This document shows positions 3,503 through 35,996 of a stretch of DNA of 37,081 nt, piece after piece. The first letter of the stretch is position 1; each line of letters opens with the position of its first letter. The notes beneath the pieces were generated by a model. It saw nothing but the letters and a program-made list of their open reading frames with translations. It did no database searches and was not told where the DNA came from. A program made the translations under genes and the position numbers. This DNA is from an uncultured Bacilli bacterium (GTDB lineage: Bacteria; Bacillota_I; Bacilli_A; RF39; UBA660): positions 1 to 37,081 of the forward strand of contig CAKOIB010000002.1 of assembly GCA_934086255.1 (NCBI GenBank). The letters run 5' to 3'.

Positions 3503-3576
3503 TGGTGCCGATTAACAGAATTGAACTGTTCTCTGATGCTTACCATGCATCTGTTTTACCACTAAACTAAATCGGC
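3503..3576 (-). tRNA. tRNA-Thr (anticodon GGU)
   Basis: A 74-nt cloverleaf. Acceptor GCCGATT/AATCGGC, D stem GTTT/AAAC, anticodon stem GATGC/GCATC with loop AUGGUAA, T arm AACAG-TTCAATT-CTGTT, and an encoded CCA. Confidence 0.9.
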
Positions 3577-3621: not shown

Positions 3622-3962
3622 TGGTGGAGATGAGGAGAATCGAACTCCTGTCCAAAAGCAAACTAATTTAAACGTCTACAAGTTTAGTTGATTAAGATTT
3701 TTCATTACTTACAGAATAACCAACAATTAAATAAGTAACTATCTTACTAATATTCATTACTATTCGTAAGAAAAATAGTAATATAGTCTGCTAGGTATTA
3801 CCCTTAAATATTCCCACAGACTAGGAATATAGAAGAGTTTTGCTTTTTTATACTAAGCAAATGCTAAATTTCTGTTTCCAGTTATATTTAATTGTGCATT
3901 TAAAGATTGCCATCTACTTGCAGTTTAAATCGTATTACTCCTGTCGAAACCATATCATCCCC
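3622..3962 (-). ncRNA. ssrA: tmRNA (SsrA)
   Basis: The 5' end is GGGGATGATATGGTTTCGACAGG and the 3' end is GGACAGGAGTTCGATTCTCCTCATCTCCACCA. These form a tRNA-Ala-like acceptor stem with a G3:U pair. The internal tag frame ends ...GNRNLAFA-TAG (about 3853-3897). It is adjacent to smpB. Confidence 0.93.
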
Positions 3963-5032: not shown

Positions 5033-5069
5033 AAATAAAAGAATTGAAATTATTTTTCTTTCAATTCTT
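5033..5069 (-). terminator. intrinsic terminator after smpB
   Basis: An 11-bp stem, AAGAATTGAAA / TTTCAATTCTT, spans the smpB stop codon. On the minus strand it is followed by TTTTATTT. Confidence 0.5.
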
Positions 5070-5487
5070 TGTTTATTCTTCTTTGGATGTCTTTTTCTTT
5101 TAATGATTCTCTTTTATCATAGTTCTTTTTACCTTTGCAGACTCCTAGAAGTACTTTTACTTTATTTTTATTAAAATATATTTTTAACGGAATAAGTGTA
5201 TAGCCTTCTTTTTCTATTTTATCTCTTAGTTTTAATATTTCTTTTTTATGTAGTAATAGTTTTCTAGTTCTTGTCTCATCTTTTATGAATGCTCCGGTTT
5301 TGTCATAGGTTTTTATGAACATATTTATTACATAGACTTCATTTTTTCTAATGATTGCATAGCTATCTTTGATATTACATGTTCCTTGTCTTATGGATTT
5401 TACTTCGTTTCCTAGTAGCTCTATTCCACATTCGTATTCGTCTTCGATAAAGTAATCGTATTTTGCTTTTCTATTTAGTATTTCCAT
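5050..5487 (-). CDS. smpB: SsrA-binding protein SmpB
   Basis: Typical SmpB length and sequence (NRKAKYDYFIED...GIEL.GNEVKS...LLLHKKEI). Sits in the rnr-smpB-ssrA synteny. Confidence 0.95.
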   Translation of the reverse strand: MEILNRKAKYDYFIEDEYECGIELLGNEVKSIRQGTCNIKDSYAIIRKNEVYVINMFIKTYDKTGAFIKDETRTRKLLLHKKEILKLRDKIEKEGYTLIPLKIYFNKNKVKVLLGVCKGKKNYDKRESLKEKDIQRRINKELKEK

Positions 5488-7579
5488 TTTGTTTTACCTT
5501 TTTTACTTTATTATTTGATTTTTTTATTGGTTCGAAGTCTATTTCATAGCTTTCAGGATCACTTCTTGTTAGTGTTACTTCAATTGTGTCTCCAAGACGA
5601 TATACTTTATTGGTTCTTTCTCCGATTATTATTTGTAATTCTTCGTCATAGTTATAATAATCATCCATTGTTTCAAAGCCTAATCTTCCTTCGACTAGAT
5701 TGTCTAGTTCGATAAACATTCCATTTTTAGTGAAACCGTTTATTTTTCCTATAAATTGTTCTCCAACTTTATTTTGCATGAATTGTGCCATTCTATATTT
5801 ATTTGCTTGTTTTTCGCATTTTTCTGCAGATATTTCTTGGTGTGATGAGTGTATGGCGATTTCTTCTAATTTTGATTTGTATAAATCTTGCATTAGTTTA
5901 TCAAATTCACCATTTAGTATTAGATGCAGCACTCTATGAATTGTTGTGTCTGGATATCTTCTTATTGGGCTTGTAAAGTGTGTGTAGTATTCTCCTTTTC
6001 TTGAGTCTACCCCAATTCCAAAGTGTCCTTGTTTTTGTGTTGTGTATTTTGCTTTAGCCATGCATCTTAGAATCATTTGTGTAAATAAATCTTTATTTTC
6101 TTTTGTTTCTAGTTCTTTTAGAATGTTTTGTATTACTTTTGGATCTGACATATTGACTTTAGTGTTTATATCTACTCCGTATGTTTTAAGTATAGTGAGA
6201 GTATTTTTTAGTCTTTCTTCGTCTGGGTATTCATGAACACGATAGATTGATTCTACTCCCATGTTATAGATGTATGTTGCTACTGTTTCATTGGCCGCTA
6301 ACATGAAGTCTTCGATTAATGTTTCTCCAGTGTCTTGTATTCGTAGTTCGATGCTTTCTACTTCGTCATTTTCATTTATATTTATTTTCTTTTCAGGAAG
6401 GTCAAAGTTTAACATTCCTCTTTTTTCCCTTGATGTTCTTAGTATTTTTGCTAATTCTTCCATTTTATTTAGTGCTTCAACATATTTTTCATAATCTTCT
6501 TCTACTACGTTTTCATTTAGTATTTTATTTACTTTTTTATATGTCATCTGAATATTTGAATGAATTACGCTTTTGAATATATCAAATGTTATTAAGTTGC
6601 CTTTTTTATCAAATTCCATTTCGCATGATAGGGCTAGTCTATCAACGTCTGGATTTAGGGAACATATTCCATTTGATAGTTGTGGTGGGTACATTGGGCT
6701 TACGACTCCTGGCATGTAGACACTTGTTGCTTTTTCTCTTGCTTCTAGATCTAGTTTTGAGTTTTCTTTTACATAGTTTGTTACGTCTGCGATATGGACT
6801 CCTAGTTTATAGTTGTCGTTTTCTAGTATATCAATTGAAATAGCATCGTCTATGTCTTTTGTATCGTCGCCATCGATTGTAAATATTATTTTGTCTCTTA
6901 GGTCTTTTCTTCCTTCAAGATCTTTTTCTAATACTGATGATGGTATGTAGTCTAGTTCTTTTAATGCTTCTTCAGTGAATCCTATTGTGAAATTATTGGC
7001 ATATAATATTTTGTTTTCTTCTAGTTTTGGAGCGTTTTTGTGACCAATTATGGTGTCTAGGGTAGCACGATAGTATTTTCCTTCTTTTGTTTTGTCTATT
7101 TTTATACCTATTAGCATACCATCTACTATTTTATCATCTAGGTTTATTTTATACATGTCTTTTCCTACAACTGCGTATCTTTCTTTATTAATGGTTTTTA
7201 CTTCTGCAATTATTCCTTTTCTTTCTATTATCTTTTTAATGGTTCCTGTGTTATTATTGAAGTCTGTTATTCTTGCTAGTACTTTATCTCCTTCAAAGCA
7301 CATTTTTTTGTAGTCTTTGTTTACGTTTATTGTTTTATTATCATAAGATACGTAACAATCGCCATTTCTTTTAATGTGAAAGATTCCTTCGACGAATGGA
7401 TTAAGGGTATAGTTGTCTCCGCCTACACAGTAGATTAGTTGTTTTTCTTTTAAATCTTCGATTACTTCTAAAAATTGTTCATATGTATAGTTTGTATAAC
7501 CACTTTTTTTATAAATATCTTTTAGGTTAATAGCGTTGTTTCTTGATATTTCTAATATATCTAGTATTTTTTCTTTCAT
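5471..7579 (-). CDS. rnr: ribonuclease R
   Basis: RNB catalytic domain (TIDGDDTKDIDDA, HFGIG...YTHFTSPIRRYPD), cold-shock-like N-terminal domains and a C-terminal S1 domain. GGTGA RBS. Confidence 0.95.
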   Translation of the reverse strand: MKEKILDILEISRNNAINLKDIYKKSGYTNYTYEQFLEVIEDLKEKQLIYCVGGDNYTLNPFVEGIFHIKRNGDCYVSYDNKTINVNKDYKKMCFEGDKVLARITDFNNNTGTIKKIIERKGIIAEVKTINKERYAVVGKDMYKINLDDKIVDGMLIGIKIDKTKEGKYYRATLDTIIGHKNAPKLEENKILYANNFTIGFTEEALKELDYIPSSVLEKDLEGRKDLRDKIIFTIDGDDTKDIDDAISIDILENDNYKLGVHIADVTNYVKENSKLDLEAREKATSVYMPGVVSPMYPPQLSNGICSLNPDVDRLALSCEMEFDKKGNLITFDIFKSVIHSNIQMTYKKVNKILNENVVEEDYEKYVEALNKMEELAKILRTSREKRGMLNFDLPEKKININENDEVESIELRIQDTGETLIEDFMLAANETVATYIYNMGVESIYRVHEYPDEERLKNTLTILKTYGVDINTKVNMSDPKVIQNILKELETKENKDLFTQMILRCMAKAKYTTQKQGHFGIGVDSRKGEYYTHFTSPIRRYPDTTIHRVLHLILNGEFDKLMQDLYKSKLEEIAIHSSHQEISAEKCEKQANKYRMAQFMQNKVGEQFIGKINGFTKNGMFIELDNLVEGRLGFETMDDYYNYDEELQIIIGERTNKVYRLGDTIEVTLTRSDPESYEIDFEPIKKSNNKVKKVKQNGNTK

Positions 7580-10256: not shown

Positions 10257-11513
10257 ATGAAAATTGTTATTCTTACACCAGAACAGTTTGATAATTTTTC
10301 TGATAATCATCCTCTTCATACTTATTATCAGACTTCTATGTATGGAAACTTGATGAAAAAGAATGGTTTTAAGGTAGAGTATTATGGTTTTGTTGATAAT
10401 TCTAATATGCTTATTGGTGCTACTTTAATGCTTACTAAAAAGTTGTTTTTTGGGCATAAATACGCTTATGCTCCTCGTGGTTTTTTGATTGATTATGACA
10501 ATAAACAACTTATTACTGAGCTTTCTAGAAAATTAAAAAGGTATTTAGCAAAGAGCAATTATGTGTTTTTAAAGATTGATCCTCCGGTTGTTGCTAATAA
10601 AAGGGATAAAGATGGTAATATTATTCCAAGTCCTTATCAAAATGATATAATAGTTTTTTTACAAAATAATGGATATAGTTATTTTGGTGATAATAAGTTT
10701 TTTGGTACCGAAAAACCAAGATGGAATGCTATTTTAAAGGTTACTGGTTCTGCTGAATCTTTGTATAGAAATTTTGATAGTAATATTAAAAATAAGATTA
10801 GAAAGGCTCAGTCTAGAGGGGTTGAAATAGTACAAGGCAATCATAATGATATGGAGATTTTTTATAGTTTTGTTTATAAGAAACATTATAGAAAGTTGAA
10901 TTATTATAAGGATTTTGGAGAGTTTTTTGGTAATAAGTTTGAGCTTTATTTTGCTAAGCTTAATACTGAGAAGTATTTGACTAATATTAAAAAATTATAT
11001 GAAGATGAAATTGCTAATAATGAGGATATTAATTCTAGGATACAGGTGGCTGGTCAAAATAATAAGATTGATAATAAGCTTACTAATTCTAAAATTACTT
11101 CGGATAAGTTGCTTGCTACTTATAAAAAGGAATTGGAGTATGCTTCATCACTTTTTGAAAAGAATCCTCAAGGTATTATTATTGGTGCAACGGGTGTTAT
11201 TATTGAAAAGTATGGTGTTGAACTTTTAATAGAGGGTTATAATCCTAAGTATGGTCTTTATTATCCTAATTTTTTACTTAAATGGTATATTATTGAAAAG
11301 TATGCAAAGCTTGGTGCTGTTTATTTCCATCTGAATGCTATTACTGGTTATTTCGGAAATAATAATAAGTTTAAGGGTCTAAATGAAATGAAGCTTGGCT
11401 ATAATGCTGAGGTTACTGAGTATATTGGTGAGTTTGATTTAGTTATTTCCCCTGGACTTTATAAGTTTTATAAGACTTCGAAATTAGGTAAAAAGAAAAA
11501 TAGAATGAGTTAA
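10257..11513 (+). CDS. FemAB-family peptidoglycan interpeptide-bridge aminoacyltransferase
   Basis: FemABX-like length and motifs (YAYAPRGFLIDY, with a coiled-coil insertion around NTEKYL...). Strong GGAGGAG RBS. One of only two genes left of the origin that are transcribed head-on to replication. Confidence 0.8.
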   Translation: MKIVILTPEQFDNFSDNHPLHTYYQTSMYGNLMKKNGFKVEYYGFVDNSNMLIGATLMLTKKLFFGHKYAYAPRGFLIDYDNKQLITELSRKLKRYLAKSNYVFLKIDPPVVANKRDKDGNIIPSPYQNDIIVFLQNNGYSYFGDNKFFGTEKPRWNAILKVTGSAESLYRNFDSNIKNKIRKAQSRGVEIVQGNHNDMEIFYSFVYKKHYRKLNYYKDFGEFFGNKFELYFAKLNTEKYLTNIKKLYEDEIANNEDINSRIQVAGQNNKIDNKLTNSKITSDKLLATYKKELEYASSLFEKNPQGIIIGATGVIIEKYGVELLIEGYNPKYGLYYPNFLLKWYIIEKYAKLGAVYFHLNAITGYFGNNNKFKGLNEMKLGYNAEVTEYIGEFDLVISPGLYKFYKTSKLGKKKNRMS

Positions 11514-15225: not shown

Positions 15226-16122
15226 TCACCTACTTATATAGTTCATTATTTCTAATATTCTGTTTAGATCATTATCATTTTCATATGATATTTCCATTTT
15301 TTTATTATTTAGTTTTACTCTTGTTCCAAAATATTCTGATAGTTGTTTTTCTAAATCAATGTACTCGCTTGATTTTTCTTTATGTTGTTTAGTAATTTTA
15401 TTCTTTCTTTCGTATTCACTATTATTTGATGATAGTTGTTCTAGTTGTCTTACACTTAAATTGTCTGTGATTGTTTTTGCCGCTAGTGTTTCTATTTTTT
15501 CTTTATCTTCTAGTTTTGATAATACTCTGGCGTGTCCCATTGTTATTTTATTTGTAATAATTAAGTCTTTTATTGATTCTGGAAGATTTAGTATTCCAAG
15601 GATGTTTGTTATGTGACTTCTTGACTTCCCAACTTTTTTCGCTAGTTGTTCTTGGTTTAAGTTTAATGTTTGCATTAGATTTTTGTATGCTTCTGCTTCT
15701 TCGATTGGATTTAGGTTTTCTCTTTGAAGGTTTTCTAATACTGCAATTTCCATCATTTGTTCATCTGTAAAATCTCTAATTATTGCTGGTATTGTTTCTT
15801 TTCCTGCTAATTGTGAAGCACGATATCTTCTTTCTCCTGCTACTATTTCGTAACCTTTTATGCTTTTTTTGACTATTATTGGTTGGATTACTCCATGTTC
15901 TTTTATTGATTCTGCTAGTTCTTGAAGTGCTTCTTCGTCAAATATTTTTCTAGGTTGGTATGGATTTACTCTTAAATCAGATAGTTTTATTTCTTTTACT
16001 TCATCTAATTCTACTGTTTCCATTATTTTTTCTTCTACTTTGTCATAGTTTATGTCTTCAATGTTGAATAGTTCTTCTAGTCCTATTCCTAGGGCTCTTC
16101 TTGTTTTATTGTTTGTTTCCAT
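15226..16122 (-). CDS. spo0J: chromosome partitioning protein ParB/Spo0J (parS-binding type)
   Basis: ParB N-domain with the GERRYRAS CTP-binding motif. HTH region is GKSRSHITNILGIL...MGHARVL (ParB-like). Directly downstream of soj. The start is set at ATG 16122, after a GAGGTGA RBS. Confidence 0.93.
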   Translation of the reverse strand: METNNKTRRALGIGLEELFNIEDINYDKVEEKIMETVELDEVKEIKLSDLRVNPYQPRKIFDEEALQELAESIKEHGVIQPIIVKKSIKGYEIVAGERRYRASQLAGKETIPAIIRDFTDEQMMEIAVLENLQRENLNPIEEAEAYKNLMQTLNLNQEQLAKKVGKSRSHITNILGILNLPESIKDLIITNKITMGHARVLSKLEDKEKIETLAAKTITDNLSVRQLEQLSSNNSEYERKNKITKQHKEKSSEYIDLEKQLSEYFGTRVKLNNKKMEISYENDNDLNRILEIMNYISR

Positions 16123-16888
16123 TTGCTTCAATCACCTCTTTGGCTAAATTTAGATATGCTTCTGATCCTCTACTTTTTGGATCGTATGCTATTATTGGTT
16201 TTCCATGTGATGGTGCTTCTGTTAATCTGATAAGTCTTGGAATTATTGTATTGTATACTTTGTCTTTGAAATATTTTCTTATTTCTTCGACTACTTCTAA
16301 TCCTAAGTTTGTTCTTACATCTAGCATTGTTAATAGTACTCCTTCGATTGCTAAGTTTGGATTTAGATTTGCTTGAGTATACATTATTGCTTTTAGTAAT
16401 TGGGTAATTCCCTCTAATGCAAAGAATTCGCATTGTACTGGAATTATTACTGAGTCTGATGCTGTTAGGGCGTTTGTTGTTATTATACCAAGTGATGGAG
16501 GGCAATCTATTATTATGTAATCATATTTGTCTTTTATTTTACTAATATGGTATTTTAATTGTTCTGCTTTTGATATGTTTGAGTCTTTATGTTCTAATTC
16601 TATGTCTATTCCTGCTAGGTTTATGTTTGCTGGAAGTACGTATAGATTTTTGTATTTTGTTTTTATTATGGTTTCTTCTATTGTAGATGTGTCATTTAAG
16701 ACGTTGTAAATACTTTTTTCTATTTCCCCTTTGTTTATACCTATTCCTGTTGTTGCATTGCATTGTGGATCTAGATCTATTAATAGAACTTTTTTATTTA
16801 ATAATGCTAATGATGCAGAAAGATTGATACTTGTAGTTGTTTTTCCTACTCCACCTTTTTGATTTATTAAAGATATTACTTTTCCCAT
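16106..16888 (-). CDS. soj: ParA/Soj partitioning ATPase
   Basis: Deviant Walker A motif NQKGGVGKTTT, with ParA-family sequence throughout. Confidence 0.95.
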   Translation of the reverse strand: MGKVISLINQKGGVGKTTTSINLSASLALLNKKVLLIDLDPQCNATTGIGINKGEIEKSIYNVLNDTSTIEETIIKTKYKNLYVLPANINLAGIDIELEHKDSNISKAEQLKYHISKIKDKYDYIIIDCPPSLGIITTNALTASDSVIIPVQCEFFALEGITQLLKAIMYTQANLNPNLAIEGVLLTMLDVRTNLGLEVVEEIRKYFKDKVYNTIIPRLIRLTEAPSHGKPIIAYDPKSRGSEAYLNLAKEVIEANGNKQ

Positions 16889-16982: not shown

Positions 16983-17007
16983 AAAAAAATGCCTATATAT
17001 AGGCATT
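16983..17007 (-). terminator. intrinsic terminator after the noc-like gene
   Basis: A perfect 20-bp palindrome, AATGCCTATATATAGGCATT, overlaps the stop codon. A T run follows on the minus strand. Confidence 0.6.
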
Positions 17008-18250
17008 AAAATTTATTTTTGTCTATTTTTATTATGATTTGATAAACATTATCTAAGTCGAATTCTTGAACATCAATATTGAAACCAAATTTTTCTGTGT
17101 TTTGTACAGCTTGCCTAACGTTATTTATAGCAAATCTTAAATCGTATACTTGATTATAACTTGGTTGTTCTTCTTTTGGTTCATTTGGTATAGTCACTAC
17201 TTGTGATGCAGATTGATTATCATTTATACTTACTGGTGTTTGTTCTTGTGGGTGTGTTTCATTTATAGTTGGTATATTTATTGATTGTTCAGTTTTTATA
17301 GGTTGTTCGTTGATATTTAATGGTTGATTTTGTACATCAGTGTTAACGTTTAGTGTTGGAATTGATGGTTGTGCTATTGATGTATCTGGTGTAGATTCTT
17401 GTCTTAGCATATCAAAAATATTGGATTTTTGTGTTACTTGTTCTGTTTTAGTTTCAGTATTTGTTTCTTTTATTTCATTTGGAATAGATATAGTTTGTTG
17501 TTCTTGTTGATTGGTATTTATATTTGCTGATAGTTGTTCCTTGTTTTGTAGTGCATTTGCTACTATATCATTTTCCATTTTATTTATGTTTTCTTCTAAA
17601 ATATTTTTGTCTTGATGTTGTATTGGTTGTTCTTCTTGTGGTTTTTTTCCAGTTAAGGCCATTATTTCATCATCTAATTGTCTTACTGTTAATCTATTCA
17701 TTATTACTTGGTTTAATAGTTTCTTTTGATCTTCTAAGTTTGAAACATTTAATAGACTTCTCGCATGGCGTTCTGATATTTGTTTATTTAGTAGTGCTGT
17801 TTGAACTTCTTCTGCTAGGTTTAAAAGTCTTAATTTGTTAGCCACTGTTGATTGTGATTTTCCTAGGTTTGCTGCTAGTTCTTCTTGAGTTATATTATCT
17901 AATTTTAGAATTGTTTGGTATGTTTTTGCTTCTTCGATTGGTGTCAAATCTGATCTTTGAAGATTTTCAAGTAAAGCAATTTTAGCTGTTTCTTTATCGT
18001 CTATGTCTCTTACTAATGCTGGTATTGTTGTTTTTCCTGCTAATTGTGAAGCACGATATCTTCTTTCTCCTGCTATTATTTCGTATTTATCACCAATTTT
18101 TCTTACTATTATTGGTTGAATTACTCCATGTTCTTTTATAGATAAAGCTAACTCATTTAATGCTTGTTCGTCAAATATTTCTCTTGGTTGAAATCTATTT
18201 GGCATTATATCGTTTATATTAAGTTCGAATACTTCTTTTTCCAAGTTCAT
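17006..18250 (-). CDS. noc: Noc-type ParB paralog (nucleoid occlusion protein homolog) with a long low-complexity linker
   Basis: Sits in the rsmG-noc-soj-spo0J synteny. The HTH region GKSQSTVANKLRLLNL...ISERHARSLL closely matches my memory of B. subtilis Noc (GKGQSTIANKLRLLKLP...ITERHARALI). The C-terminal DLRFAINNVRQAV...YQIIIKIDK matches the Noc C-terminus. The start is set at ATG 18250 (AGAGGGA RBS). Confidence 0.85.
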   Translation of the reverse strand: MNLEKEVFELNINDIMPNRFQPREIFDEQALNELALSIKEHGVIQPIIVRKIGDKYEIIAGERRYRASQLAGKTTIPALVRDIDDKETAKIALLENLQRSDLTPIEEAKTYQTILKLDNITQEELAANLGKSQSTVANKLRLLNLAEEVQTALLNKQISERHARSLLNVSNLEDQKKLLNQVIMNRLTVRQLDDEIMALTGKKPQEEQPIQHQDKNILEENINKMENDIVANALQNKEQLSANINTNQQEQQTISIPNEIKETNTETKTEQVTQKSNIFDMLRQESTPDTSIAQPSIPTLNVNTDVQNQPLNINEQPIKTEQSINIPTINETHPQEQTPVSINDNQSASQVVTIPNEPKEEQPSYNQVYDLRFAINNVRQAVQNTEKFGFNIDVQEFDLDNVYQIIIKIDKNKF

Positions 18251-18315
18251 ATTATCCCTCTTTTCATTCTTTTTATAGTTCCCCTGATGTAAATTATACA
18301 ATAAAAAAAGAGACT

Positions 18316-19017
18316 TTACAATGGTCTATGTTTAATTTTTGCAAAATCTCTTGGGTATAATTGTGATACTTTGTTTATTTTTCTTATTTTTAGTATTGTT
18401 CTTGTACTTTTTTCTACTGGTAATTTGAATTGATACATTTTTTCTAATTTAAAGTTTAGTGTTTTTAGAGCATTTTCAGATTGTAATAATTCATCTTCGA
18501 CTTTTGCTTTTAGAATTATAAAATATCCTTTTATTTTTACTAATTGCGAAGCTAATTCTAGTATTACTGGAATGCTTGCTACTGCTCGTGATGTTACTAT
18601 ATCAAATTCTTCTTTGTGTTTTTTTGAGTATTCTTCTATTCTTGCTGTTTCTACTTTTATGTTTTCTAAGTTTAATTCTTTTATTAAGTAATTTAAAAAC
18701 TTTGTTCTTTTTTCAAGTGAGTCTACCAATGTTACATCTAGTTGTGGGTATGCTATTTTTAAGACTACTCCAGGAAATCCTGCTCCACTTCCTATATCAC
18801 ATAGTTTTGTATTTTTATCTTCAATTAGCGGAGCTGCTGCTAATGAATCGTAAAAGTGTTTTAAATATACTTCTTTTTTAGCAGTTATTCCTGTTAGATT
18901 TATTTTTTTGTTTTCTTCTACTAAGATTTTGTAATACTTATTTAGTTGTTCTAGTTGTTTTTCGTTTAGGATTATATTTATTTTTTTTAATTCTAATATA
19001 AATTCTTCTTTAGTCAT
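18316..19017 (-). CDS. rsmG: 16S rRNA m7G527 methyltransferase RsmG (GidB)
   Basis: SAM-binding motif [10 protein letters not shown], with GidB family length and synteny. Confidence 0.93.
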
Positions 19018-20854
19018 TTGTTTTATTTCCCCTTTTTAAATAAATCATTAGTATTGATATGTCAGCTGGATTTACACCACTTATTCTCATTGCTTGTCCA
19101 ATTGATGTTGGTTTTACCTGTTGTAGTTTTTCTCTTGCTTCTAGTGCTAAATTGCTAATTTTTCTAAAGTCTGTGTCTTCTGGTATTGCTATTTCATCGT
19201 ATTCAGTCATTTTTTTTGCTTCTCTTTCTTGTTTTTTGATGTATCCTTCATATTTTACTATTATTTGGGTTTTGTTTATTATTTCTTCTTCATAGTTGTT
19301 TTTTAAATATTTTATTAAATCTAAAATATTTATTTCTGGTCTTTTTAGTAGTTCAAATAATGATATTCTATCTTTTAATTCAATGTTTAGTTCGTTATTT
19401 GTTGGTTTTATATAACTTGTTTTTAATTCTTCGATTAGTTCTTTTATCTTTTGTTCTTTTTGTTTGTATTTTTGATATTGTTCTTCTTTTAGAAGTCCTA
19501 TTTCATGTCCTTTTTCTGATAGTCTTTGATCTGCATTATCATCTCTTAAAAGTAGTCTGTATTCTGCTCTTGATGTTAATAGACGATATGGTTCTTTTGT
19601 TCCTTTTGTTACTAAGTCATCTATTAAAACTCCGATGTAGGCTTCGTTTCTTTTTAGAATTAGTGGTTTTTTGCCTTCTAGTTTTAGGGATGCATTTATT
19701 CCTGCGATTAGACCTTGACATGCTGCTTCTTCATATCCAGATGTTCCATTTATTTGTCCCGCAGTAAATAGATTTTCTATTATTTTTGTTTCTAATGATT
19801 GTTTTAATTGAGTTGGATCTATTGCATCGTATTCTATTGCATAAGCATATTTCAATATTTTTGCATTTTCTAATCCTGGTAATGAATGAACCATTTGTTC
19901 TTGAATGTCTTCTGGCATACTTGTTGAAAAACCTTGAATGTATATATCATCATAATATAGGCTTTCAGGTTCTAAAAATAGTTGGTGTCTTTCTTTGTCA
20001 TTAAATCTTACTATTTTGTCTTCGATTGATGGACAGTATCTTGGTCCTACTCCTTCGACGTATCCGCCATACATACTAGATTTTTGTAAGTTTTCATTTA
20101 TTATCCTATGGGTGTCTGGTGTTGTATAGATTAAATAGCATTTTTCTTGGTTTTCTATATCATATTTTACTTCATTCATATAGGAAAATGTTAATGGATA
20201 GTTGTCTCCTTTTTGTTCTAATCCTTTTGTAAAGTCTATTGTGTCTTTTTTGATTCTTGGTGGGGTTCCTGTTTTTAGTCTTTGAATTGTAAAACCTAGT
20301 TCTTTTAGTTTATCACTTAGATGAAGTGATGGTTCTTCTCCATGAGGTCCTCCAGAATGTTTTTTATCTCCGCGTAGAATCATTCCTTTTAAATATGTTC
20401 CTGTTGTTAGTATTACTGCGTCTGCATATATTTTTTCATCATTTTTTGTTATGACTCCTTTTATAGTATTGTTTTCTACAATTAGGTCTTCTACTATGTC
20501 TTCTTTTATTTCTAGATTTTTTTCATTTTGTAATGTTTTTAACATTTCTTGTGGATAAATTGTTTTGTCTATTTGAGCTCTTAGTGCTTGAACTGCTGGT
20601 CCTTTTTTTGTATTTAATTTTTTTATTTGAAGAATAGATTTGTCTGTGTTTTTACCCATTTCTCCACCAAGGGCGTCTATTTCTCTTACTACTACTCCTT
20701 TGGCTGGTCCTCCGATTGAAGGATTACAAGGTGTGTCTGCTATGTTTTTAATGTTTCCTGTTATTAAAAGTGTTTTATGACCTTTTCTGGATGCTGCTAA
20801 TGCTGCTTCACATCCGGCGTGTCCTCCTCCTACTACGATTATTTCATACTTCAT
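19010..20854 (-). CDS. mnmG: tRNA uridine-5-carboxymethylaminomethyl modification enzyme MnmG (GidA)
   Basis: N-terminal FAD-binding motif [12 protein letters not shown], with GidA sequence throughout. Confidence 0.97.
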
Positions 20855-28143: not shown

Positions 28144-28210
28144 TCTTCATATGGTAGGGTATTGGTCAATATATTTTTATATATTAATTTTTGTGTATGG
28201 GGGTGATTTT

Positions 28211-28666
28211 ATGGATTATGATATTAATAGGGATACAGTAATGATTATTCCAATAAATGATAAGAAATCTAGAGTTATTGAAACTAATGGTGATTATATA
28301 GTTGATGATAATGCTTATTCTATTATGGAACGTAGTTGTTTGTATTTCGGAAGTTCATATGAGGGAAGACTTTTGAGTTCGAAAAGTATTCTTGGTAGTG
28401 TTTACAAGGCTCCAATTGTGGTTGAAGAAAGTAGAAGTATTATATTTTTTCCTGTAAAATCTTCAGTTGTAAAACAAAATGTTTGGATTTCTTTGAATAA
28501 TTTAGTTAGTTATAATAAACATGAGAAAAAAACTATTATAACCTTCAAGAGAGATAAACAAGTTTTATTGGATATTCCTTATTTTTCTATTGATAATCAG
28601 GTTCTTAGATCTACTTTGTTAGAATCTGTTATTCGTAGGAGAAAAAACGAAGAAAAAAACGATTAA
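28211..28666 (+). CDS. ComK-family transcription factor homolog
   Basis: IMERSCLYFGSSYEGR, YKAPIVVEESRSIIFFPVKS, NVWISLNNL and FSIDNQVLRS line up with my memory of B. subtilis ComK (IVDRSCRFFGSSYAGRK, HKPPIMVDPSNQIFLFPTLS, GWISHVHV, NSFENQVYRT). The start is set at ATG 28211 (RBS GGGGGTGA). Confidence 0.8.
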   Translation: MDYDINRDTVMIIPINDKKSRVIETNGDYIVDDNAYSIMERSCLYFGSSYEGRLLSSKSILGSVYKAPIVVEESRSIIFFPVKSSVVKQNVWISLNNLVSYNKHEKKTIITFKRDKQVLLDIPYFSIDNQVLRSTLLESVIRRRKNEEKND

Positions 28667-34481: not shown

Positions 34482-34497
34482 TGTTTCACGTGAAACT
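34482..34497. other. parS site a (15/16 match)
   Basis: TGTTTCACGTGAAACT compared with the consensus TGTTTCACGTGAAACA. A TGTTAATAA 9-mer begins 23 bp upstream. Confidence 0.75.
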
Positions 34498-34693
34498 TTT
34501 GTCAATATGTTATTAAATTTTAAATATAATTATTTTAAGTTTGATTTATTTTGTTTATATTAACTTAATTAATTATATTTTTATTTTGCTTTTTACATAA
34601 GTTATATATTAGTTTATAGTATTTGTGTTTTAATATGTATAGTTACAATTGTAAAACTTTTAATTTAAAATTGTTAATAAATATTTTTTTCAA

Positions 34694-34709
34694 TGTTTCA
34701 CGTGAAACA
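34694..34709. other. parS site b (16/16)
   Basis: TGTTTCACGTGAAACA lies inside the 22-bp perfect palindrome CAATGTTTCACGTGAAACATTG (34691-34712). It ends 1 nt before the -35 box of the SRP RNA promoter. Confidence 0.85.
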
Positions 34710-34713
34710 TTGA

Positions 34714-34742
34714 TTGACTATTTTTTGGTTTTATTATAATAT
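34714..34742 (+). promoter_or_regulatory. SRP RNA promoter
   Basis: TTGACT (34714-34719), a 17-nt spacer, then TAATAT (34737-34742). An alternative TATAAT lies at 34735-34740. The predicted start is near G34749. Confidence 0.55.
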
Positions 34743-34748
34743 ATATTT

Positions 34749-34819
34749 GTGCAACGCATAAGATTGAATTAGGTCAGGATTGGAAAATAGCAGCCTTAAG
34801 ATCCTCTATGCGTGTGCAC
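34749..34819 (+). ncRNA. ffs: small (4.5S-type) SRP RNA
   Basis: A single long hairpin, GTGCA.CGCATA...TATGCG.TGCAC. Its apex carries the universal domain IV motif GGTCAGG-ATT-GGAA-AAT-AGCAGCC (compare E. coli GGUCAGGUCCGGAAGGAAGCAGCC). It is followed by T8. Confidence 0.85.
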
Positions 34820-34838
34820 TTTTTTTTGGAGGTTTTTT

Positions 34839-35279
34839 ATGTTATTAAATGAAGACAATTATTACTTCAGTTTAGCTTTAAAAGAAGCAAAAAAAGCGTT
34901 AAAAACAAATAATGTTCCAGTAGGTTGTGTTATTGTTTTTAGAAATAGAGTAATTGCTAAAGCATACAATAAGAAAAATAGTAAAAATATTTCAGTATAT
35001 CATGCTGAAATATTGGCAATTATTAAAGCATGTAAATGTTTAAAAACTTTTATTTTAAATGAATGTACTATGTATGTTACCTTAGAACCTTGTAAAATGT
35101 GTATGAATGCTATTGCTGAATCGCGTATTAGAAATGTTAATTACTTAATTTCTTCCAAATATGAAATTAATTTAAAAAGTAACTATGATCGTATTAGCTG
35201 TAAACAATTTGATGATAATGAATTTGCAGATAAATATAAGAAAATATTGTCAGAGTTTTTTAGTAATATTAGAGGTTAA
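34839..35279 (+). CDS. tadA: tRNA-specific adenosine deaminase TadA
   Basis: CDA-fold zinc motifs HAE and PCKMC. Typical TadA length (146 aa). The start is set at ATG 34839, after a GGAGG RBS. Confidence 0.9.
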   Translation: MLLNEDNYYFSLALKEAKKALKTNNVPVGCVIVFRNRVIAKAYNKKNSKNISVYHAEILAIIKACKCLKTFILNECTMYVTLEPCKMCMNAIAESRIRNVNYLISSKYEINLKSNYDRISCKQFDDNEFADKYKKILSEFFSNIRG

Positions 35280-35282
35280 CAA

Positions 35283-35298
35283 TGTTTCACGTGAAACA
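35283..35298. other. parS site c (16/16)
   Basis: TGTTTCACGTGAAACA lies inside the 26-bp palindrome AACAATGTTTCACGTGAAACATTGTT. It starts 4 nt after the tadA stop codon and is followed by a TTT run. Confidence 0.85.
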
Positions 35299-35370
35299 TT
35301 GTTTTTAAAATAAAATTATATTAATGTATTATGTTCTTAAAAATGTTCATCTAATATAGATATAGCTTGT

Positions 35371-35394
35371 AAATTATTTCCCGGGAAATAATTT
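35371..35394. other. Noc-binding-site (NBS) palindrome 1
   Basis: The 24-bp perfect palindrome AAATTATTTCCCGGGAAATAATTT contains the B. subtilis NBS consensus ATTTCCCGGGAAAT exactly. Confidence 0.8.
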
Positions 35395-35439
35395 TGAATT
35401 GAAAAGTATTATTAAATTGTTAATAAGTATTTATTTTTA

Positions 35440-35455
35440 TGTTTCACGTGAAACA
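35440..35455. other. parS site d (16/16)
   Basis: TGTTTCACGTGAAACA. A TGTTAATAA 9-mer begins 22 bp upstream. Confidence 0.85.
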
Positions 35456-35556
35456 TTAGAAAATATCAATATTTTTAATATTTGTTTATTATTTTAAAAT
35501 ATTTTGTCTTTTTTTTTATTTAAGTAACTGTTTTAATTTTTTGCATTCTAATCTTA

Positions 35557-35572
35557 TGTTTCACGTGAAACA
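35557..35572. other. parS site e (16/16)
   Basis: TGTTTCACGTGAAACA, followed by TTGTTTTT. Confidence 0.85.
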
Positions 35573-35641
35573 TTGTTTTTAGATATAATAATACTGATTG
35601 CTATGATTTTGAAAATACTTATTAATATAAAATTGGGTTGT

Positions 35642-35665
35642 AAATTATTTCCCGGGAAATAATTT
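35642..35665. other. NBS palindrome 2
   Basis: AAATTATTTCCCGGGAAATAATTT, identical to copy 1. Confidence 0.8.
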
Positions 35666-35711
35666 TGAATTGAAAAGCATTATTAAATTGTTAATAAATA
35701 CTTATTTCTAA

Positions 35712-35727
35712 TGTTTCACGTGAAACA
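35712..35727. other. parS site f (16/16)
   Basis: TGTTTCACGTGAAACA. A TGTTAATAA 9-mer begins 23 bp upstream. Confidence 0.85.
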
Positions 35728-35826
35728 TTAGAAAATATCAATATTTTTAATGCTTGTTATTATTCTAAAATATTTTGTCTTTCTTTTTATTAAGTAATTG
35801 TTTTAATTTTTTTTATTCTAATCTTA

Positions 35827-35842
35827 TGTTTCACGTGAAACA
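35827..35842. other. parS site g (16/16)
   Basis: TGTTTCACGTGAAACA, followed by TTGTTTTT. Confidence 0.85.
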
Positions 35843-35910
35843 TTGTTTTTAGATAAAATAATATTGATTGTTATGATCTTGAAAATACTCATTATATAGA
35901 AATAACTTGT

Positions 35911-35934
35911 AAATTATTTCCCGGGAAATAATTT
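35911..35934. other. NBS palindrome 3
   Basis: AAATTATTTCCCGGGAAATAATTT, identical to copies 1 and 2. Confidence 0.8.
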
Positions 35935-35980
35935 CGAATTGAAAAGCATTATTAAATTGTTAATAAGTGCTTATTTCTAA

Positions 35981-35996
35981 TGTTTCACGTGAAACA
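35981..35996. other. parS site h (16/16)
   Basis: TGTTTCACGTGAAACA. A TGTTAATAA 9-mer begins 23 bp upstream. Confidence 0.85.

What the first reader, a model, noticed from the sequence alone, without database searches (positions are those of the whole stretch)
17006..18250. Atypical Noc paralog: no obvious N-terminal membrane helix, plus a Q/N/T/P-rich linker of about 165 aa
Seen directly: the protein has a Noc-like HTH region (GKSQSTVANKLRLL...ISERHAR, versus GKSRSHITNILGIL...MGHAR in the neighbouring ParB) and a Noc-like C-terminal domain (DLRFAINNVRQAV...YQIIIKIDK). Between them (about 17159-17650) lies a low-complexity tract rich in Q, N, T, P and E, with a recurring I-P-N/T motif (SIPNE, SIPTLN, NIPTINE, TIPNEP). 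Its N-terminus (MNLEKEVFEL..., or MYNLHQGNYKKNEKRDN if the upstream ATG is used) does not resemble the short amphipathic membrane-targeting helix of B. subtilis Noc (MKHSFSRFFGL, from memory). Established knowledge: that helix is required for the nucleoid-occlusion function. Inference: together with the NBS sites clustered at ori, this paralog may have a different role, such as origin organisation or condensate/tether formation through the disordered linker, rather than classical nucleoid occlusion.
Basis: partly seen in the sequence, partly recalled or inferred. Interest (0 to 1): 0.65.

Follow-up and report, generated by a model that had tools for sequence, protein, structure and literature searches.

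The report
Noc variant without its membrane helix
This gene encodes a relative of the cell-division regulator Noc that lacks the usual membrane-anchoring tip, carries a long floppy acidic spacer with a short conserved motif, and has its DNA landing sites interleaved with the chromosome's centromere sites, which points to an origin-centred way of working.

Summary
Window 17006-18250 (-) encodes a 414-aa Noc-lineage ParB/CTP-clamp protein at the canonical rsmG-noc-soj-spo0J locus. Its specificity residues are Q-K-N-R. It matches Noc structures better than ParB structures. With the linker removed it passes the curated Noc HMM cut-off (318 against 315 bits).

It starts 23 residues later than B. 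subtilis Noc, so the membrane-targeting helix alpha1 and helix alpha2 are absent. Residues 202-366 form an acidic, Q/N/P/T-rich linker that is predicted to be disordered.

It is not a one-off. At least 147 clusters at 50% identity share the short N-terminus and long acidic linkers (median 215 aa). They form a sister clade to the characterised Nocs.

The linker is hypervariable except for one island, NIFxxLR (108 of 120 close homologues). More distant members carry [KR]-F-F-x-[LF]...EEE, which resembles residues 7-17 of B. subtilis Noc.

The three perfect NBS sites in the window alternate with seven perfect parS sites in a 271-bp tandem array between gyrA and dnaX. The same composite arrays occur at the same position in more than 100 related metagenomic loci.

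Best reading: an origin-centred Noc variant that tethers through linker motifs. The mechanism is inferred. The genome-wide NBS distribution is unknown.

The parts
17006..18250 (-). noc-like gene, 414 aa (short N-terminus, long linker; Noc-lineage ParB/CTP-clamp protein)
   Evidence: ORF and translation. TIGR04285 scores 297.6 bits for the full protein and 318.2 bits with the linker deleted, against a cut-off of 315. The best PDB matches are Noc 7NG0 and 7NFU.
18256..18260 (-). Shine-Dalgarno GAGGG, 5 nt upstream of ATG 18250
   Evidence: Read directly from the sequence.
18293..18321 (-). Promoter-like site TTGTAA-17-TATAAT (10 of 12 matches) in the rsmG-noc spacer. It overlaps the alternative TTG start at 18301.
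   Evidence: This is a consensus match only.
17957..18235 (-). ParB N-terminal (CTP-binding) domain, aa 6-98. It includes GERRYRAS (18047-18070) and is followed by ENLQR (17954-17968).
   Evidence: Pfam PF02195, E 1.5e-36. Motif positions.
17660..17950 (-). ParB-type HTH DNA-binding domain, aa 101-197. Specificity residues are Q133, K139, N144 and R161 (Q-K-N-R).
   Evidence: Pfam PF17762, E 3e-32. Residues. Specificity code from PMC7383237.
17153..17647 (-). Acidic, Q/N/P/T-rich disordered linker, aa 202-366 (net charge -14)
   Evidence: Composition. pLDDT below 50. Hypervariable in length and sequence among homologues.
17399..17422 (-). Conserved linker motif NIFDMLRQ (aa 277-284), the only conserved island in the linker. 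Predicted as a short helix at 278-282.
   Evidence: [IV]FxxLR is present in 108 of 120 close homologues at variable positions. AF2 helix with a local rise in pLDDT.
17183..17485 (-). Four [ST]-I-P-[NT] motifs: aa 256-258 (17477-17485), 297-299 (17354-17362), 326-328 (17267-17275) and 354-356 (17183-17191)
   Evidence: Semi-conserved as IPx[IL][NDE] in homologues. Family-wide IP enrichment is only 1.33-fold.
17009..17146 (-). Noc-type C-terminal dimerisation domain, aa 369-414 (one helix and two strands)
   Evidence: The CTD alone matches TIGR04285 profile positions 206-255 (29.7 bits, E 3.9e-7). AF2 pLDDT is about 86.
16988..17007 (-). Intrinsic-terminator-like hairpin AATGCCTATATATAGGCATT followed by a T-run, directly after the stop codon
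35282..35997 (.). Tandem array of 2.6 units of 271 bp. Each unit is parS, then 93 bp to NBS, then 64 bp to parS (start to start). It is the presumed loading platform for this protein and for ParB.
   Evidence: Tandem Repeats Finder, 89% matches. Sequence.
35375..35390 (.). NBS 1, TATTTCCCGGGAAATA (perfect 16-mer)
35646..35661 (.). NBS 2, TATTTCCCGGGAAATA
35915..35930 (.). NBS 3, TATTTCCCGGGAAATA
34482..35996 (.). Eight parS sites. Seven are perfect TGTTTCACGTGAAACA, at 34694, 35283, 35440, 35557, 35712, 35827 and 35981. One at 34482 has a single mismatch.
   Evidence: No shuffle out of 100 reached 9 matches.
16106..16888 (-). soj/parA (ParA-family ATPase), immediately downstream of the noc-like gene
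   Evidence: NCBIfam ParA-family hits.
15226..16131 (-). Canonical ParB/Spo0J. Specificity residues are R-I-N-G. It has the N-terminal LGIGLEELF peptide.
   Evidence: The best PDB match is Spo0J 6SDK at 239.8 bits, against 163 bits for Noc.
18316..19017 (-). rsmG (gidB), immediately upstream. It defines the canonical noc locus.
   Evidence: Gene order. GidB Pfam hits on the orthologous genes in L123 and L124.

Best explanation
What it is. The gene is the noc-locus gene of an uncultured, very AT-rich gut Bacilli lineage. It encodes a Noc-lineage ParB-type CTP clamp that recognises the canonical 16-bp NBS. It belongs to a large sister clade of the characterised Nocs. In that clade the N-terminal membrane-targeting helix (alpha1) and helix alpha2 are absent. 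The short basic DBD-CTD linker is replaced by a long acidic disordered spacer that carries one or more short hydrophobic motifs. Here the motif is NIFDMLR. In more distant members it is [KR]-F-F/I-x-[LF] followed by an acidic run.

Proposed mechanism, with each step marked.
1. Dimers held together by the C-terminal domain nucleate at the NBS sites. These sites alternate with parS in the tandem array between gyrA and dnaX, about 9 kb from dnaA. The sites and their conservation are shown. Binding is inferred from the Q-K-x-R code.
2. CTP closes the N-terminal gate and the clamps slide out over the origin-proximal region, intermixed with ParB clamps. This is inferred from the intact GERRxRA and ENLQR motifs.
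3. The many linker motifs displayed on long acidic tethers bind either the membrane or a membrane- or divisome-associated partner, with avidity from their number. This would anchor or shield the origin region. It is inferred and is the least certain step.

The result would be an origin-centred form of nucleoid occlusion or anchoring, rather than the chromosome-wide, N-terminal-helix-driven mechanism of B. subtilis.
For: Noc identity.
- The PDB ranking is reciprocal. This protein scores 220.8 bits against Noc and 176.5 against Spo0J. Its ParB neighbour scores 239.8 against Spo0J and 163 against Noc.
- TIGR04285 scores 297.6 bits for the full protein, 318.2 with the linker deleted (cut-off 315), and 29.7 for the CTD alone.
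- A neighbour-joining tree groups the Noc types against the ParBs in 96 of 100 bootstraps, and places the short-N clade as sister to B. subtilis and G. thermoleovorans Noc in 96 of 100.
- The specificity residues are Q-K-N-R. Jalal 2020 found that Q173 and R201 need a permissive K at position 179 or 184.
- The gene order is rsmG-noc-soj-spo0J.

Missing helix.
- PNRFQPR starts at residue 17, against residue 40 in B. subtilis Noc and 38 in G. thermoleovorans Noc.
- In 257 of 267 family members only 14-18 residues precede PNRFQPR, and none has an MKxxFS[KR]FF-like N-terminus.

Linker.
- Composition and charge.
- Predicted disorder, with a helix only at the motif.
- In 155 family members the linker has a median length of 215 aa, is always net negative, contains 0.8% Arg and has no transmembrane segment.

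Motifs.
- NIFxxLR occurs in 108 of 120 close homologues.
- [KR][FY]-hydrophobic followed by an acidic run occurs in 58 of 146 representatives, against 3.4 expected from shuffled linkers. The same pattern matches B. subtilis Noc residues 7-17.
- In a 10,400-residue test set, the two best hits of the motif HMM are the membrane-targeting regions of the two crystallised Nocs. The scores are weak.

Sites.
- The window has 3 perfect NBS and 7 perfect parS in a 271-bp tandem array.
- 105 metagenomic loci (22-33% GC) carry NBS-parS arrays. Of their 266 NBS, 230 lie within 150 bp of a parS.
- These arrays sit next to gyrA (74 loci), tadA (83) and dnaX (68).
- The array and a short-N Noc co-occur on one contig in the window, on the 137,524-bp contig that carries L015 (P0014's longest recorded contig has the same length), and in L123 and L124.
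- No NBS lies outside the array in the 37-kb window, in a further 9 kb of the same species, or in about 93 kb of noc flanks from relatives.
Against: - No biochemical or localisation evidence exists for any member of this clade.
- The whole-genome NBS distribution could not be examined. About 19 NBS in the sampled loci lie more than 1 kb from a parS, and 5 lie more than 4 kb away. Scattered sites at a density of roughly 1 per 100 kb are therefore not excluded.
- The NIFDMLRQE motif has net charge -1 and only a moderate hydrophobic moment (0.54). That is not what one expects of a membrane anchor.
- The homology between NIFxxLR and the [KR]FF motif is not statistically supported.
- The resemblance of the [KR]FF motif to the canonical membrane-targeting sequence rests on bit scores of 1.4-1.8 (E about 0.7-1).
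- One relative, L125, has no parS or array within 10 kb of dnaN.
Confidence: 0.5

Rival explanations
1. Classical chromosome-wide nucleoid occlusion with a relocated membrane anchor. The linker motif (NIFxxLR, or [KR]FFx[LF] in other members) would be a functional amphipathic membrane-targeting sequence moved from the N-terminus into the linker. NBS sites would also be scattered over the chromosome arms outside the window. The protein would then block division over the nucleoid as B. subtilis Noc does.
For: - The [KR]FFx[LF] motif with its acidic run copies the pattern of B. subtilis Noc residues 7-17, SRFFGLGEKEQE.
- The hydrophobic positions 2, 3, 5 and 6 fall on one face of a helix. This is my own helical-wheel reasoning.
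- AF2 predicts a helix at the motif.
- A few solitary NBS exist several kb from the arrays in relatives.
- Adams 2015 showed that a heterologous amphipathic helix can replace the Noc N-terminus.
Against: - An internal motif cannot be gated by the CTP-dependent release of an N-terminal helix docked on the NTD, which is the mechanism described by Jalal 2021.
- The motif sits in a strongly acidic tether and is often itself acidic. Both features disfavour binding to anionic membranes.
- Many variants have a proline inside the motif, as in KFIPSFEEE.
- 261 of the 266 sampled NBS lie within 2 kb of the centromere arrays. This sample was selected for NBS-parS pairs.
Confidence: 0.25
2. An accessory of the ParABS or replication machinery that does not touch the membrane. 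The linker motif, with its invariant Arg or Lys in an otherwise Arg-poor linker, would be a protein-binding peptide. Candidate partners are Soj/ParA (encoded next door), MinD, SMC, DnaA and divisome proteins. The protein would modulate segregation or initiation at the composite centromere.
For: - The NBS sites are physically interleaved with parS.
- The gene lies directly upstream of soj-spo0J.
- The conserved basic residue together with hydrophobic residues is the general form of peptides that activate ParA- or MinD-type ATPases. This rests on established knowledge and was not tested here.
- S. aureus Noc controls replication initiation (PMC5540599).
- The window's ParB has LGIGL rather than the LG[KR]GL ParA-binding motif (motif definition from PMC12704722).
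Against: - The motif does not match the (L|F|I)G[KR]G(L|F|I) ParA-binding motif.
- No partner could be tested, because no multimer prediction or interaction data were available.
- My comparisons with clamp-binding motifs and with the FtsZ C-terminal peptide were from memory and do not fit the conserved positions.
Confidence: 0.17
3. The linker is largely neutral low-complexity expansion in an AT-rich genome (slippage of CAA, GAA, CCA and ACA codons). The protein would be a membrane-less, reduced-function Noc that merely occupies NBS as a roadblock or insulator, or is on the way to being lost.
For: - The linker sequence and length are hypervariable, and proteins range from 315 to 514 aa even among close relatives.
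- Internal duplications are visible in the linker.
- The linker-coding strand is A-rich.
Against: - The NTD, DBD and CTD are invariant at most positions across the aligned homologues.
- Long, net-acidic linkers are retained in all 155 members examined.
- The motifs occur far more often than in shuffled linkers: 58 observed against 3.4 expected, and 108 of 120.
- Perfect 16-bp NBS sites are maintained in arrays in more than 100 loci, where about 0.001 would be expected by chance.
Confidence: 0.06

Closest known systems
Canonical nucleoid occlusion protein Noc (B. subtilis, S. aureus, G. thermoleovorans; TIGR04285; PDB 7NFU, 7NG0, 7OL9, 6Y93)
   Same: - A ParB/Srx CTP-binding N-terminal domain with GERRxRA and ENLQR.
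- An HTH with Q173, K179 and R201.
- The identical 16-bp NBS, TATTTCCCGGGAAATA.
- A Noc-type C-terminal domain.
- The gene position rsmG-noc-soj-spo0J.
- It groups with Noc against ParB in 96 of 100 bootstraps.
   Different: - It lacks the roughly 23 N-terminal residues that form the membrane-targeting helix alpha1 and helix alpha2.
- Position 184 is Asn rather than Lys.
- The DBD-CTD linker is 165 aa, acidic and disordered, and carries a conserved motif. In the canonical protein the TIGR04285 profile spans the NTD to the CTD in only 255 positions, so the linker there is short.
- The NBS sites are arranged in tandem arrays interleaved with parS near oriC, whereas canonical NBS sites are reported as scattered.
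- It belongs to a separate sister clade.
Chromosomal ParB/Spo0J
   Same: - The same domain order and CTP-clamp motifs.
- 53% identity to the neighbouring ParB over the NTD and DBD.
- Loading sites clustered near the origin, in this case in the same array.
   Different: - The specificity residues are Q..R, not R..G.
- It has no N-terminal LG[KR]GL-type ParA-binding peptide.
- The C-terminal domain is of the Noc type.
- The linker is much longer.
RicO, RocS and RacA (origin-anchoring proteins of Firmicutes)
   Same: The proposed working principle is the same. A site-specific DNA-binding domain acts on origin-proximal sites, and a spacer connects it to a short amphipathic or partner-binding element that attaches the origin region to the membrane or pole (bioRxiv 10.64898/2026.03.06.710092).
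   Different: - The fold is unrelated: a MerR-like HTH with a coiled coil and a C-terminal amphipathic helix.
- Those proteins have no CTP clamp and no sliding.
- For the present protein the anchoring role is inferred only.
Proteins built as a globular domain, an acidic disordered linker and a short binding motif, such as FtsZ (C-terminal linker and peptide) and SSB (linker and tip)
   Same: The architecture is the same: a hypervariable disordered spacer of selected length and charge that carries a short conserved hydrophobic peptide.
   Different: - The motif here is internal and lies between two folded domains.
- Its sequence is different.
- This comparison rests on general knowledge and was not tested here.

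Membership tests
Noc (nucleoid occlusion protein, TIGR04285) | ParB-type N-terminal domain with CTP-binding and hydrolysis motifs (GERRxRA, ENLQR) | tested here: met
   PF02195 at aa 6-98, E 1.5e-36. GERRYRAS at aa 61-68 and ENLQR at aa 95-99. Both align with Noc 7NG0.
Noc (nucleoid occlusion protein, TIGR04285) | NBS-type specificity residues Q173, K179, K184 and R201 (Jalal 2020) | tested here: met
   The residues are Q133, K139, N144 and R161, so three of four match. The paper states that a permissive K at either position 179 or 184 suffices. The clade consensus is Q-K-[N/S/T/A]-R.
Noc (nucleoid occlusion protein, TIGR04285) | Cognate NBS sites present in the genome | tested here: met
   Three perfect 16-bp TATTTCCCGGGAAATA sites in the window, where about 6e-5 are expected. 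They are conserved in relatives.
Noc (nucleoid occlusion protein, TIGR04285) | Score above the curated HMM cut-off (315 bits) | tested here: inconclusive
   The full-length protein scores 297.6 bits in two stretches, below the cut-off. With aa 211-356 removed it scores 318.2 bits end to end (profile 1-255 of 255). The neighbouring ParB scores 241.4.
Noc (nucleoid occlusion protein, TIGR04285) | Highly conserved N-terminal amphipathic membrane-targeting helix (aa 1-10 to 15), required for function (Adams 2015, Jalal 2021) | tested here: not met
   The protein starts where NocN-delta-26 starts. PNRFQPR is at residue 17, against residue 40 in B. subtilis and 38 in G. thermoleovorans. The upstream ORF limit leaves no room for the helix. 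None of 267 clade members has it.
Noc (nucleoid occlusion protein, TIGR04285) | Noc-type C-terminal dimerisation domain | tested here: met
   The CTD alone hits TIGR04285 profile positions 206-255 with 29.7 bits, E 3.9e-7. The AF2 model is confident for aa 369-412.
Noc (nucleoid occlusion protein, TIGR04285) | Gene position between rsmG (gidB) and soj-spo0J | tested here: met
   The order is the same in L123 and L124.
Noc (nucleoid occlusion protein, TIGR04285) | Phylogenetic placement with Noc rather than ParB | tested here: met
   The neighbour-joining tree gives Noc-type monophyly in 96 of 100 bootstraps, but the clade is sister to the two canonical Nocs (96 of 100) rather than nested among them. 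The tree is rough and includes only two canonical sequences.
Noc (nucleoid occlusion protein, TIGR04285) | NBS sites scattered over the chromosome and absent near the terminus | not testable with these tools
   Only about 20 kb on each side of oriC is visible. There all NBS lie in the parS array. No complete genome of the lineage could be read.
Noc (nucleoid occlusion protein, TIGR04285) | CTP-dependent membrane binding and inhibition of division over the nucleoid | not testable with these tools
   This needs biochemistry and cell biology.
Chromosomal ParB/Spo0J | parS specificity residues R173 and G201, and an N-terminal ParA-binding peptide (L|F|I)G[KR]G(L|F|I) | tested here: not met
   The residues are Q133 and R161 rather than R and G. 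There is no N-terminal peptide. PDB ParB structures score lower than Noc structures.

The most novel reading that the evidence does not exclude
Two parts of the Noc system may be evolutionarily movable: the membrane- or partner-binding module, and the layout of the binding sites. In a large, uncultured sister clade of the known Nocs, the [KR]FF-acidic module sits in a long disordered linker instead of at the N-terminus. In the same lineage the NBS sites are built into the parS centromere as composite tandem arrays. On this reading, this Noc is a second centromere-binding CTP clamp that anchors or shields replication origins. Chromosome-wide nucleoid occlusion in Bacillales and origin-centred anchoring would then be two outcomes of a single ParB duplication.
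Probability: 0.3. Interest if true: 0.8.

Novelty: new variant of a known kind. Interest (0 to 1): 0.66.

Why it matters
Current models of Noc rest on two features. One is an N-terminal amphipathic helix whose exposure is gated by CTP. The other is a set of NBS sites scattered over the chromosome arms. The foundational paper reported that all Noc homologues it examined had the helix (Adams 2015).

The results here show a large and diverse group of Noc-lineage proteins, at least 147 clusters at 50% identity, that lack the helix. They have long acidic disordered linkers with conserved short motifs instead. Their NBS sites are interleaved with parS in conserved arrays at a fixed position near oriC.

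If the inferred mechanism holds, three things follow.
- It gives a natural experiment on how a ParB duplicate acquired a new output, whether membrane binding, tethering or partner binding.
- It gives a natural case of two CTP clamps loading side by side on one centromere.
- It gives a handle on chromosome organisation in abundant but uncultured small-genome gut Bacilli.

The composite arrays are also ready-made test substrates for interference or cooperation between ParB and Noc on the same DNA.

Tried and rejected
- A longer N-terminus from the upstream TTG at 18301. Rejected. The 17 extra residues (MYNLHQGNYKKNEKRDN) are polar, the codon lies inside a promoter-like -10 element, and all homologues start MNLEKE.
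- Hydrophobic-moment scanning to decide whether NIFDMLR is a membrane anchor. Uninformative. The motif scores 0.54 and the genuine B. subtilis targeting sequence scores 0.41-0.50 on the same scale.
- An HMM built from the [KR]FF motif to detect NIFxxLR. No significant hit, so homology between the two motif classes is unproven.
- Scoring the [KR]FF HMM against the canonical Noc N-termini. They are the top two hits, but at 1.4-1.8 bits. I treat this as a lead only.
- I-P-N/T as a family-wide motif. The IP dipeptide is only 1.33-fold enriched.
- Transmembrane segments in the linkers. None found; the highest 19-residue Kyte-Doolittle mean is 1.47.
- Comparison of the motif, from memory, with the beta-clamp-binding motif QL[SD]LF, the FtsZ C-terminal peptide DIPxFLR and the SSB tip. 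The conserved positions do not correspond, so I dropped these.
- NBS search in the 13 noc-flank loci. None found.
- Look-up of tadA from the listed GTG start. It failed. The real start is ATG 34839.
- Source names for homologues. None carried a name.
- Seven literature searches for a prior description of Noc proteins without the helix or with long linkers, or of NBS-parS arrays. Nothing found. The 2025 survey of the ParB-CTPase fold treats Noc as a single canonical example.
- A first phylogeny script timed out. I reran it with a faster distance routine.
Full report
**1. The observation**

The finding's coordinates are right. On the minus strand, ATG 18250 to TAA 17006-17008 encodes 414 aa. The start codon is preceded by GAGGG at 18256-18260. 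The reading frame can extend only to TTG 18301, which adds 17 polar residues. That codon lies inside a promoter-like TTGTAA-17-TATAAT at 18321-18293. All 120 closest homologues begin MNLEKE. A hairpin followed by a T-run sits directly after the stop codon, at 17007-16988.

- GKSQSTVANKLRLLNL...SERHAR at aa 130-164.
- YDLRFAINNVRQAV...YQIIIKIDK at aa 369-411.
- Four [ST]IP[NT] motifs at aa 256, 297, 326 and 354.

The linker spans aa 202-366, which is window 17153-17647. It contains Q 13.9%, N 13.9%, P 8.5% and T 9.7%, against 2.7, 7.7, 2.5 and 6.0% in the other proteins of the window. Its net charge is -14. AlphaFold2, run on a 44-sequence alignment, models aa 1-205 and 369-412 with confidence. 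It gives pLDDT below 50 for 207-221, 232-275 and 284-368.

**2. It belongs to the Noc lineage, and it is the positional orthologue of noc**

On the minus strand the gene order is mnmE, mnmG, rsmG, this gene, soj/parA, parB. That is the canonical noc locus.

- Pfam finds ParB_N at aa 6-98 and HTH_ParB at aa 101-197.
- Among solved structures the best matches are Noc: 7NG0 at 220.8 bits, 7NFU at 220.2 and 7OL9 at 195.4. Spo0J (6SDK) scores 176.5.
- The neighbouring ParB shows the reverse order. It scores 239.8 bits against Spo0J and 163 against Noc.
- The two window proteins are 53% identical over the NTD and DBD.
- The curated Noc model TIGR04285 gives 297.6 bits, below its 315-bit cut-off, and the match is split by the linker. 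The ParB neighbour gets 241.4.
- After removing aa 211-356 in silico the protein scores 318.2 bits, covering the profile end to end. The C-terminal 58 residues alone match profile positions 206-255 (29.7 bits, E 3.9e-7).
- The four specificity positions defined by Jalal et al. 2020 are RTAG in ParB and QKKR in Noc. Q173 and R201 need a permissive Lys at position 179 or 184 (PMC7383237). Here they read Q133-K139-N144-R161. The neighbouring ParB reads R-I-N-G.
- A neighbour-joining tree of the NTD and DBD (62 sequences, 200 columns) groups all Noc types against the ParBs in 96 of 100 bootstraps. It places the present clade as sister to the B. subtilis and G. thermoleovorans Nocs in 96 of 100. 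This tree is rough and includes only two canonical Nocs.

**3. The N-terminal membrane helix is absent, in this protein and throughout the clade**

I checked the N-termini of the crystallised Nocs against the PDB.
- B. subtilis (7OL9): MKHSFSRFFGLGEKEQEPEIAEHDTNKEEILEIPVNAIVPNRFQPR.
- G. thermoleovorans (7NFU): MKHPFSRLFSFGEKEQEEMEEKQEREEVRHIPVKSIIPNRFQPR.

PNRFQPR therefore begins at residue 40 or 38 in those proteins, and at residue 17 here. The protein starts about where the engineered NocN-delta-26 construct starts (PMC8429893). It lacks both the membrane-targeting helix alpha1 and helix alpha2.

Adams et al. 2015 reported an extremely conserved N-terminus and a predicted amphipathic helix in all Noc homologues they examined. 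They also showed that the helix is required for function (PMC4331003).

**4. This is a large family, not an oddity**

The 120 best hits in the 90%-identity database are 315-514 aa long. All except one probable mis-called start (P0081) have the short N-terminus. Nearly all have Q-K-N-R.

An exhaustive HMMER search of representatives at 50% identity returned 150 proteins at E no higher than 1e-71. Of these, 147 were new, and they are 279-678 aa long. PNRFQPR starts at residue 14-18 in all but a handful. The specificity residues are Q-K-[N/S/T/A]-R.

Over all 267 sequences, 257 have 14-18 residues before PNRFQPR. None has a canonical-type N-terminus.

In 155 members the linker has a median length of 215 aa (range 29-428). 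It is net negative in every case (median -0.125 per residue). It is rich in E, N and P, contains only 0.8% Arg, and has no transmembrane segment.

The close relatives come from uncultured gut "Bacilli bacterium" MAGs. Some of these are labelled Mycoplasma sp.. The window has 27% G+C.

**5. The linker is not featureless**

Among close homologues the NTD, DBD and CTD are invariant at most positions, while the linker is unalignable. The one exception is the island N-[IV]-F-x-x-L-R, which here is NIFDMLRQ at aa 277-284. It is present in 108 of 120 homologues, at variable distances from the DBD. AF2 predicts a short helix at 278-282, with a local rise in pLDDT. The 12 homologues without it have SIFFTNPEP-like strings instead.

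A search for over-represented patterns in the linkers of the 146 distant representatives gave one outstanding hit, a basic-aromatic-aromatic-polar pattern. It occurs in 46 sequences against 1.2 expected. The instances read ...PGKFFNLLxxEDE, NKFFNFLEDEE and GRFFTLLDPEEEE. Related forms include YKFIPSFEEE and NRFIPDFLDEE.

A stricter pattern requires [KR][FY] followed by a hydrophobic residue, a second hydrophobic residue 2-4 positions after the basic residue's triplet start-plus-three window, and at least 3 acidic residues in the next 9. In plainer terms: [KR][FY]-hydrophobic, another hydrophobic residue within the next few positions, then an acidic run. It is found in 58 of 146 linkers, against 3.4 expected from shuffles. 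The same pattern matches B. subtilis Noc residues 7-17, SRFFGLGEKEQE.

I built an HMM of the motif and scored it against a 10,400-residue test set made of the window proteome and the two canonical N-termini. It ranks the two membrane-targeting regions first and second, but at only 1.8 and 1.4 bits (E 0.7-1). The resemblance is a lead, not proof. The HMM does not detect NIFxxLR. The shared hydrophobic pattern at positions 2, 3, 5 and 6 (KFFNLL against NIFDML) is my own reading.

**6. The binding sites: a composite centromere**

The window contains exactly three perfect NBS, at 35376, 35647 and 35916. It contains seven perfect 16-bp parS, plus one with a single mismatch. They form 2.6 tandem units of 271 bp. 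Each unit is parS, then 93 bp to NBS, then 64 bp to parS, measured start to start. The array lies between tadA and dnaX, downstream of gyrA and about 9 kb from dnaA. The chance expectation for a single NBS in the window is about 6e-5.

One scan of metagenome contigs for NBS-N(35-65)-parS returned 105 loci, all with 22-33% G+C. Many have several alternating copies. L071, for example, has 9 NBS and 9 parS at a 106-bp period.
- The 105 loci hold 266 NBS and 375 parS cores.
- 230 of the 266 NBS lie within 150 bp of a parS.
- After discarding the one NBS per locus that satisfied the search, 125 of the remaining 161 still lie within 150 bp of a parS.
- The full 16-mer TATTTCCCGGGAAATA is invariant and is flanked by AAA...TTT.

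tblastn places these arrays next to gyrA (74 loci, 60-97% identity to the window protein), tadA (83 loci) and dnaX (68 loci). The position is therefore conserved over deep divergence.

Loci anchored on dnaN capture the noc gene and the array together.
- L123 has a 405-aa short-N Noc, with 3 NBS and 8 parS around tadA.
- L124 has the P0097-type Noc, with 5 NBS (two with one mismatch) and 3 parS.
- L126 has an NBS and 4 parS.
- L125 has no parS and only one NBS, which lies inside dnaX.

Other contigs of the same species carry 3 array units, or 2 in one case. They show no further NBS in the 9 kb beyond the window. No NBS occurs in about 93 kb of noc flanks from ten relatives.

**7. What this means mechanistically**

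Shown:
- Noc-lineage identity.
- Intact CTP motifs.
- An NBS-type recognition code.
- Perfect, conserved NBS sites.
- Absence of the N-terminal helix.
- A disordered acidic linker with conserved short motifs.
- Interleaving of NBS with parS at a conserved origin-proximal position.

Inferred:
- The protein loads at these NBS and closes as a CTP clamp.
- It spreads over the same DNA as ParB.
- It uses the many linker motifs on long tethers to attach the origin region to the membrane or to a partner.

I consider an origin-centred anchoring or occlusion role the most likely reading (about 0.5). The rivals are as follows.
- (a) Classical chromosome-wide occlusion with the anchor relocated into the linker. 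The [KR]FF resemblance favours it. The acidity of the motif context, prolines inside many motif variants, and the loss of the CTP-gated N-terminal docking mechanism argue against it.
- (b) A role without the membrane, in which the motif binds Soj, MinD, SMC, DnaA or a divisome protein.
- (c) Neutral low-complexity expansion in a reduced-function protein. This is contradicted by the conservation statistics.

The main gap is the genome-wide NBS distribution. In the sampled loci 19 NBS lie more than 1 kb from a parS. Most of these are a recurrent site in or just after dnaX, and 5 lie more than 4 kb away. Sparse scattered sites are therefore not excluded.

**8. Comparison with what is known**

It works like a Noc or ParB CTP clamp. 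It passes most Noc membership tests. It fails the one feature that the literature treats as defining for Noc function, the N-terminal amphipathic helix. I therefore file it as a variant within the Noc lineage, not as a canonical Noc.

In proposed function it resembles the origin anchors RicO, RocS and RacA. Those proteins combine a DNA-binding domain, a spacer and a membrane- or pole-binding element (bioRxiv 10.64898/2026.03.06.710092). They have an unrelated fold.

S. aureus Noc already links Noc to origin biology, because it controls replication initiation (PMC5540599).

Seven full-text searches found no description of Nocs that lack the helix or have long linkers, nor of NBS-parS arrays. 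A 2025 survey of the ParB-CTPase fold mentions Noc only as a canonical example (PMC12704722).

**9. Limits**

- Nothing here is experimental.
- The tree is distance-based and has few canonical Nocs.
- The metagenomic sample of arrays was selected for NBS-parS pairs.
- Taxonomy rests on MAG labels.
- The link between the two motif classes, and the link between those motifs and the canonical targeting helix, are suggestive only.

Noticed in passing
window 34482-35997: A composite centromere lies between gyrA and dnaX, flanking tadA and the SRP RNA gene. It holds 8 parS and 3 NBS, with a 271-bp tandem unit of parS-NBS-parS. The same kind of array occurs at the same position in more than 100 related metagenomic loci.
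   Followed up: yes
L121:2470-2898, compared with L119:10445-11143 and window 35283-35996: Array copy number differs between strains of the same species. L121 has two units (2 NBS), whereas L119, L120, L122 and the window have three.
   Followed up: partly
L125:19479 (dnaX at 18441-20075); also L053:3095 and 3152, L036:1910, L074:4327, L094:1869, L095:11518, L092:6517: Many relatives have a perfect NBS inside or just after the conserved N-terminal part of dnaX, 1-2 kb from the array. In L125 this is the only NBS, and no parS lies within 10 kb. The window's species has none in dnaX.
   Followed up: partly
window 28151-28666 (+): A ComK-family ORF (PF06338 on the orthologous genes) sits between dnaN and recF. 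It is conserved in L119 and L123-L126. The position is unusual for a competence-regulator homologue.
   Followed up: no
window 34738-34835 and 34812-35279 (+): A small SRP RNA gene (60.6 bits) overlaps the GTG start listed for tadA. The real tadA start is ATG 34839, preceded by GGAGG. Only the 146-aa product is on record.
   Followed up: yes
window 15226-16131 (-), N-terminus: The ParB N-terminal peptide reads RRALGIGLEELF. The central residue of the published ParA-binding motif (L|F|I)G[KR]G(L|F|I) is Ile here, with two Arg residues just upstream (motif from PMC12704722).
   Followed up: no
P0217, P0179, P0260, P0265 and P0238, P0263-P0265, P0227, P0207 (linkers): Other recurring linker motifs appear in distant members of the clade. 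NPGF[MIV]D[VIL][DN]KI occurs in one subclade. [DN][SN][LM]F[GS] repeats occur up to 8 times in a single protein. FG and GF dipeptides are 2-3.4-fold enriched in the linkers.
   Followed up: no
window 3503-3576 and 3622-3962 (-): A tRNA-Thr (GGT) gene and a tmRNA gene (tag peptide GNRNLAFA) lie next to smpB (5050-5487) and RNase R (5471-7579).
   Followed up: no
L125:8490-9860: dnaA is called as two ORFs of 249 and 169 aa in this relative. This could be a frameshift or an assembly error. The same relative lacks parS near the origin.
   Followed up: no
window 10257-11513 (+): A weak FemX-like hit (49.5 bits, far below the cut-off) suggests peptidoglycan cross-bridge synthesis. That would mean a walled organism, despite the Mycoplasma labels on some related MAGs.
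   Followed up: no
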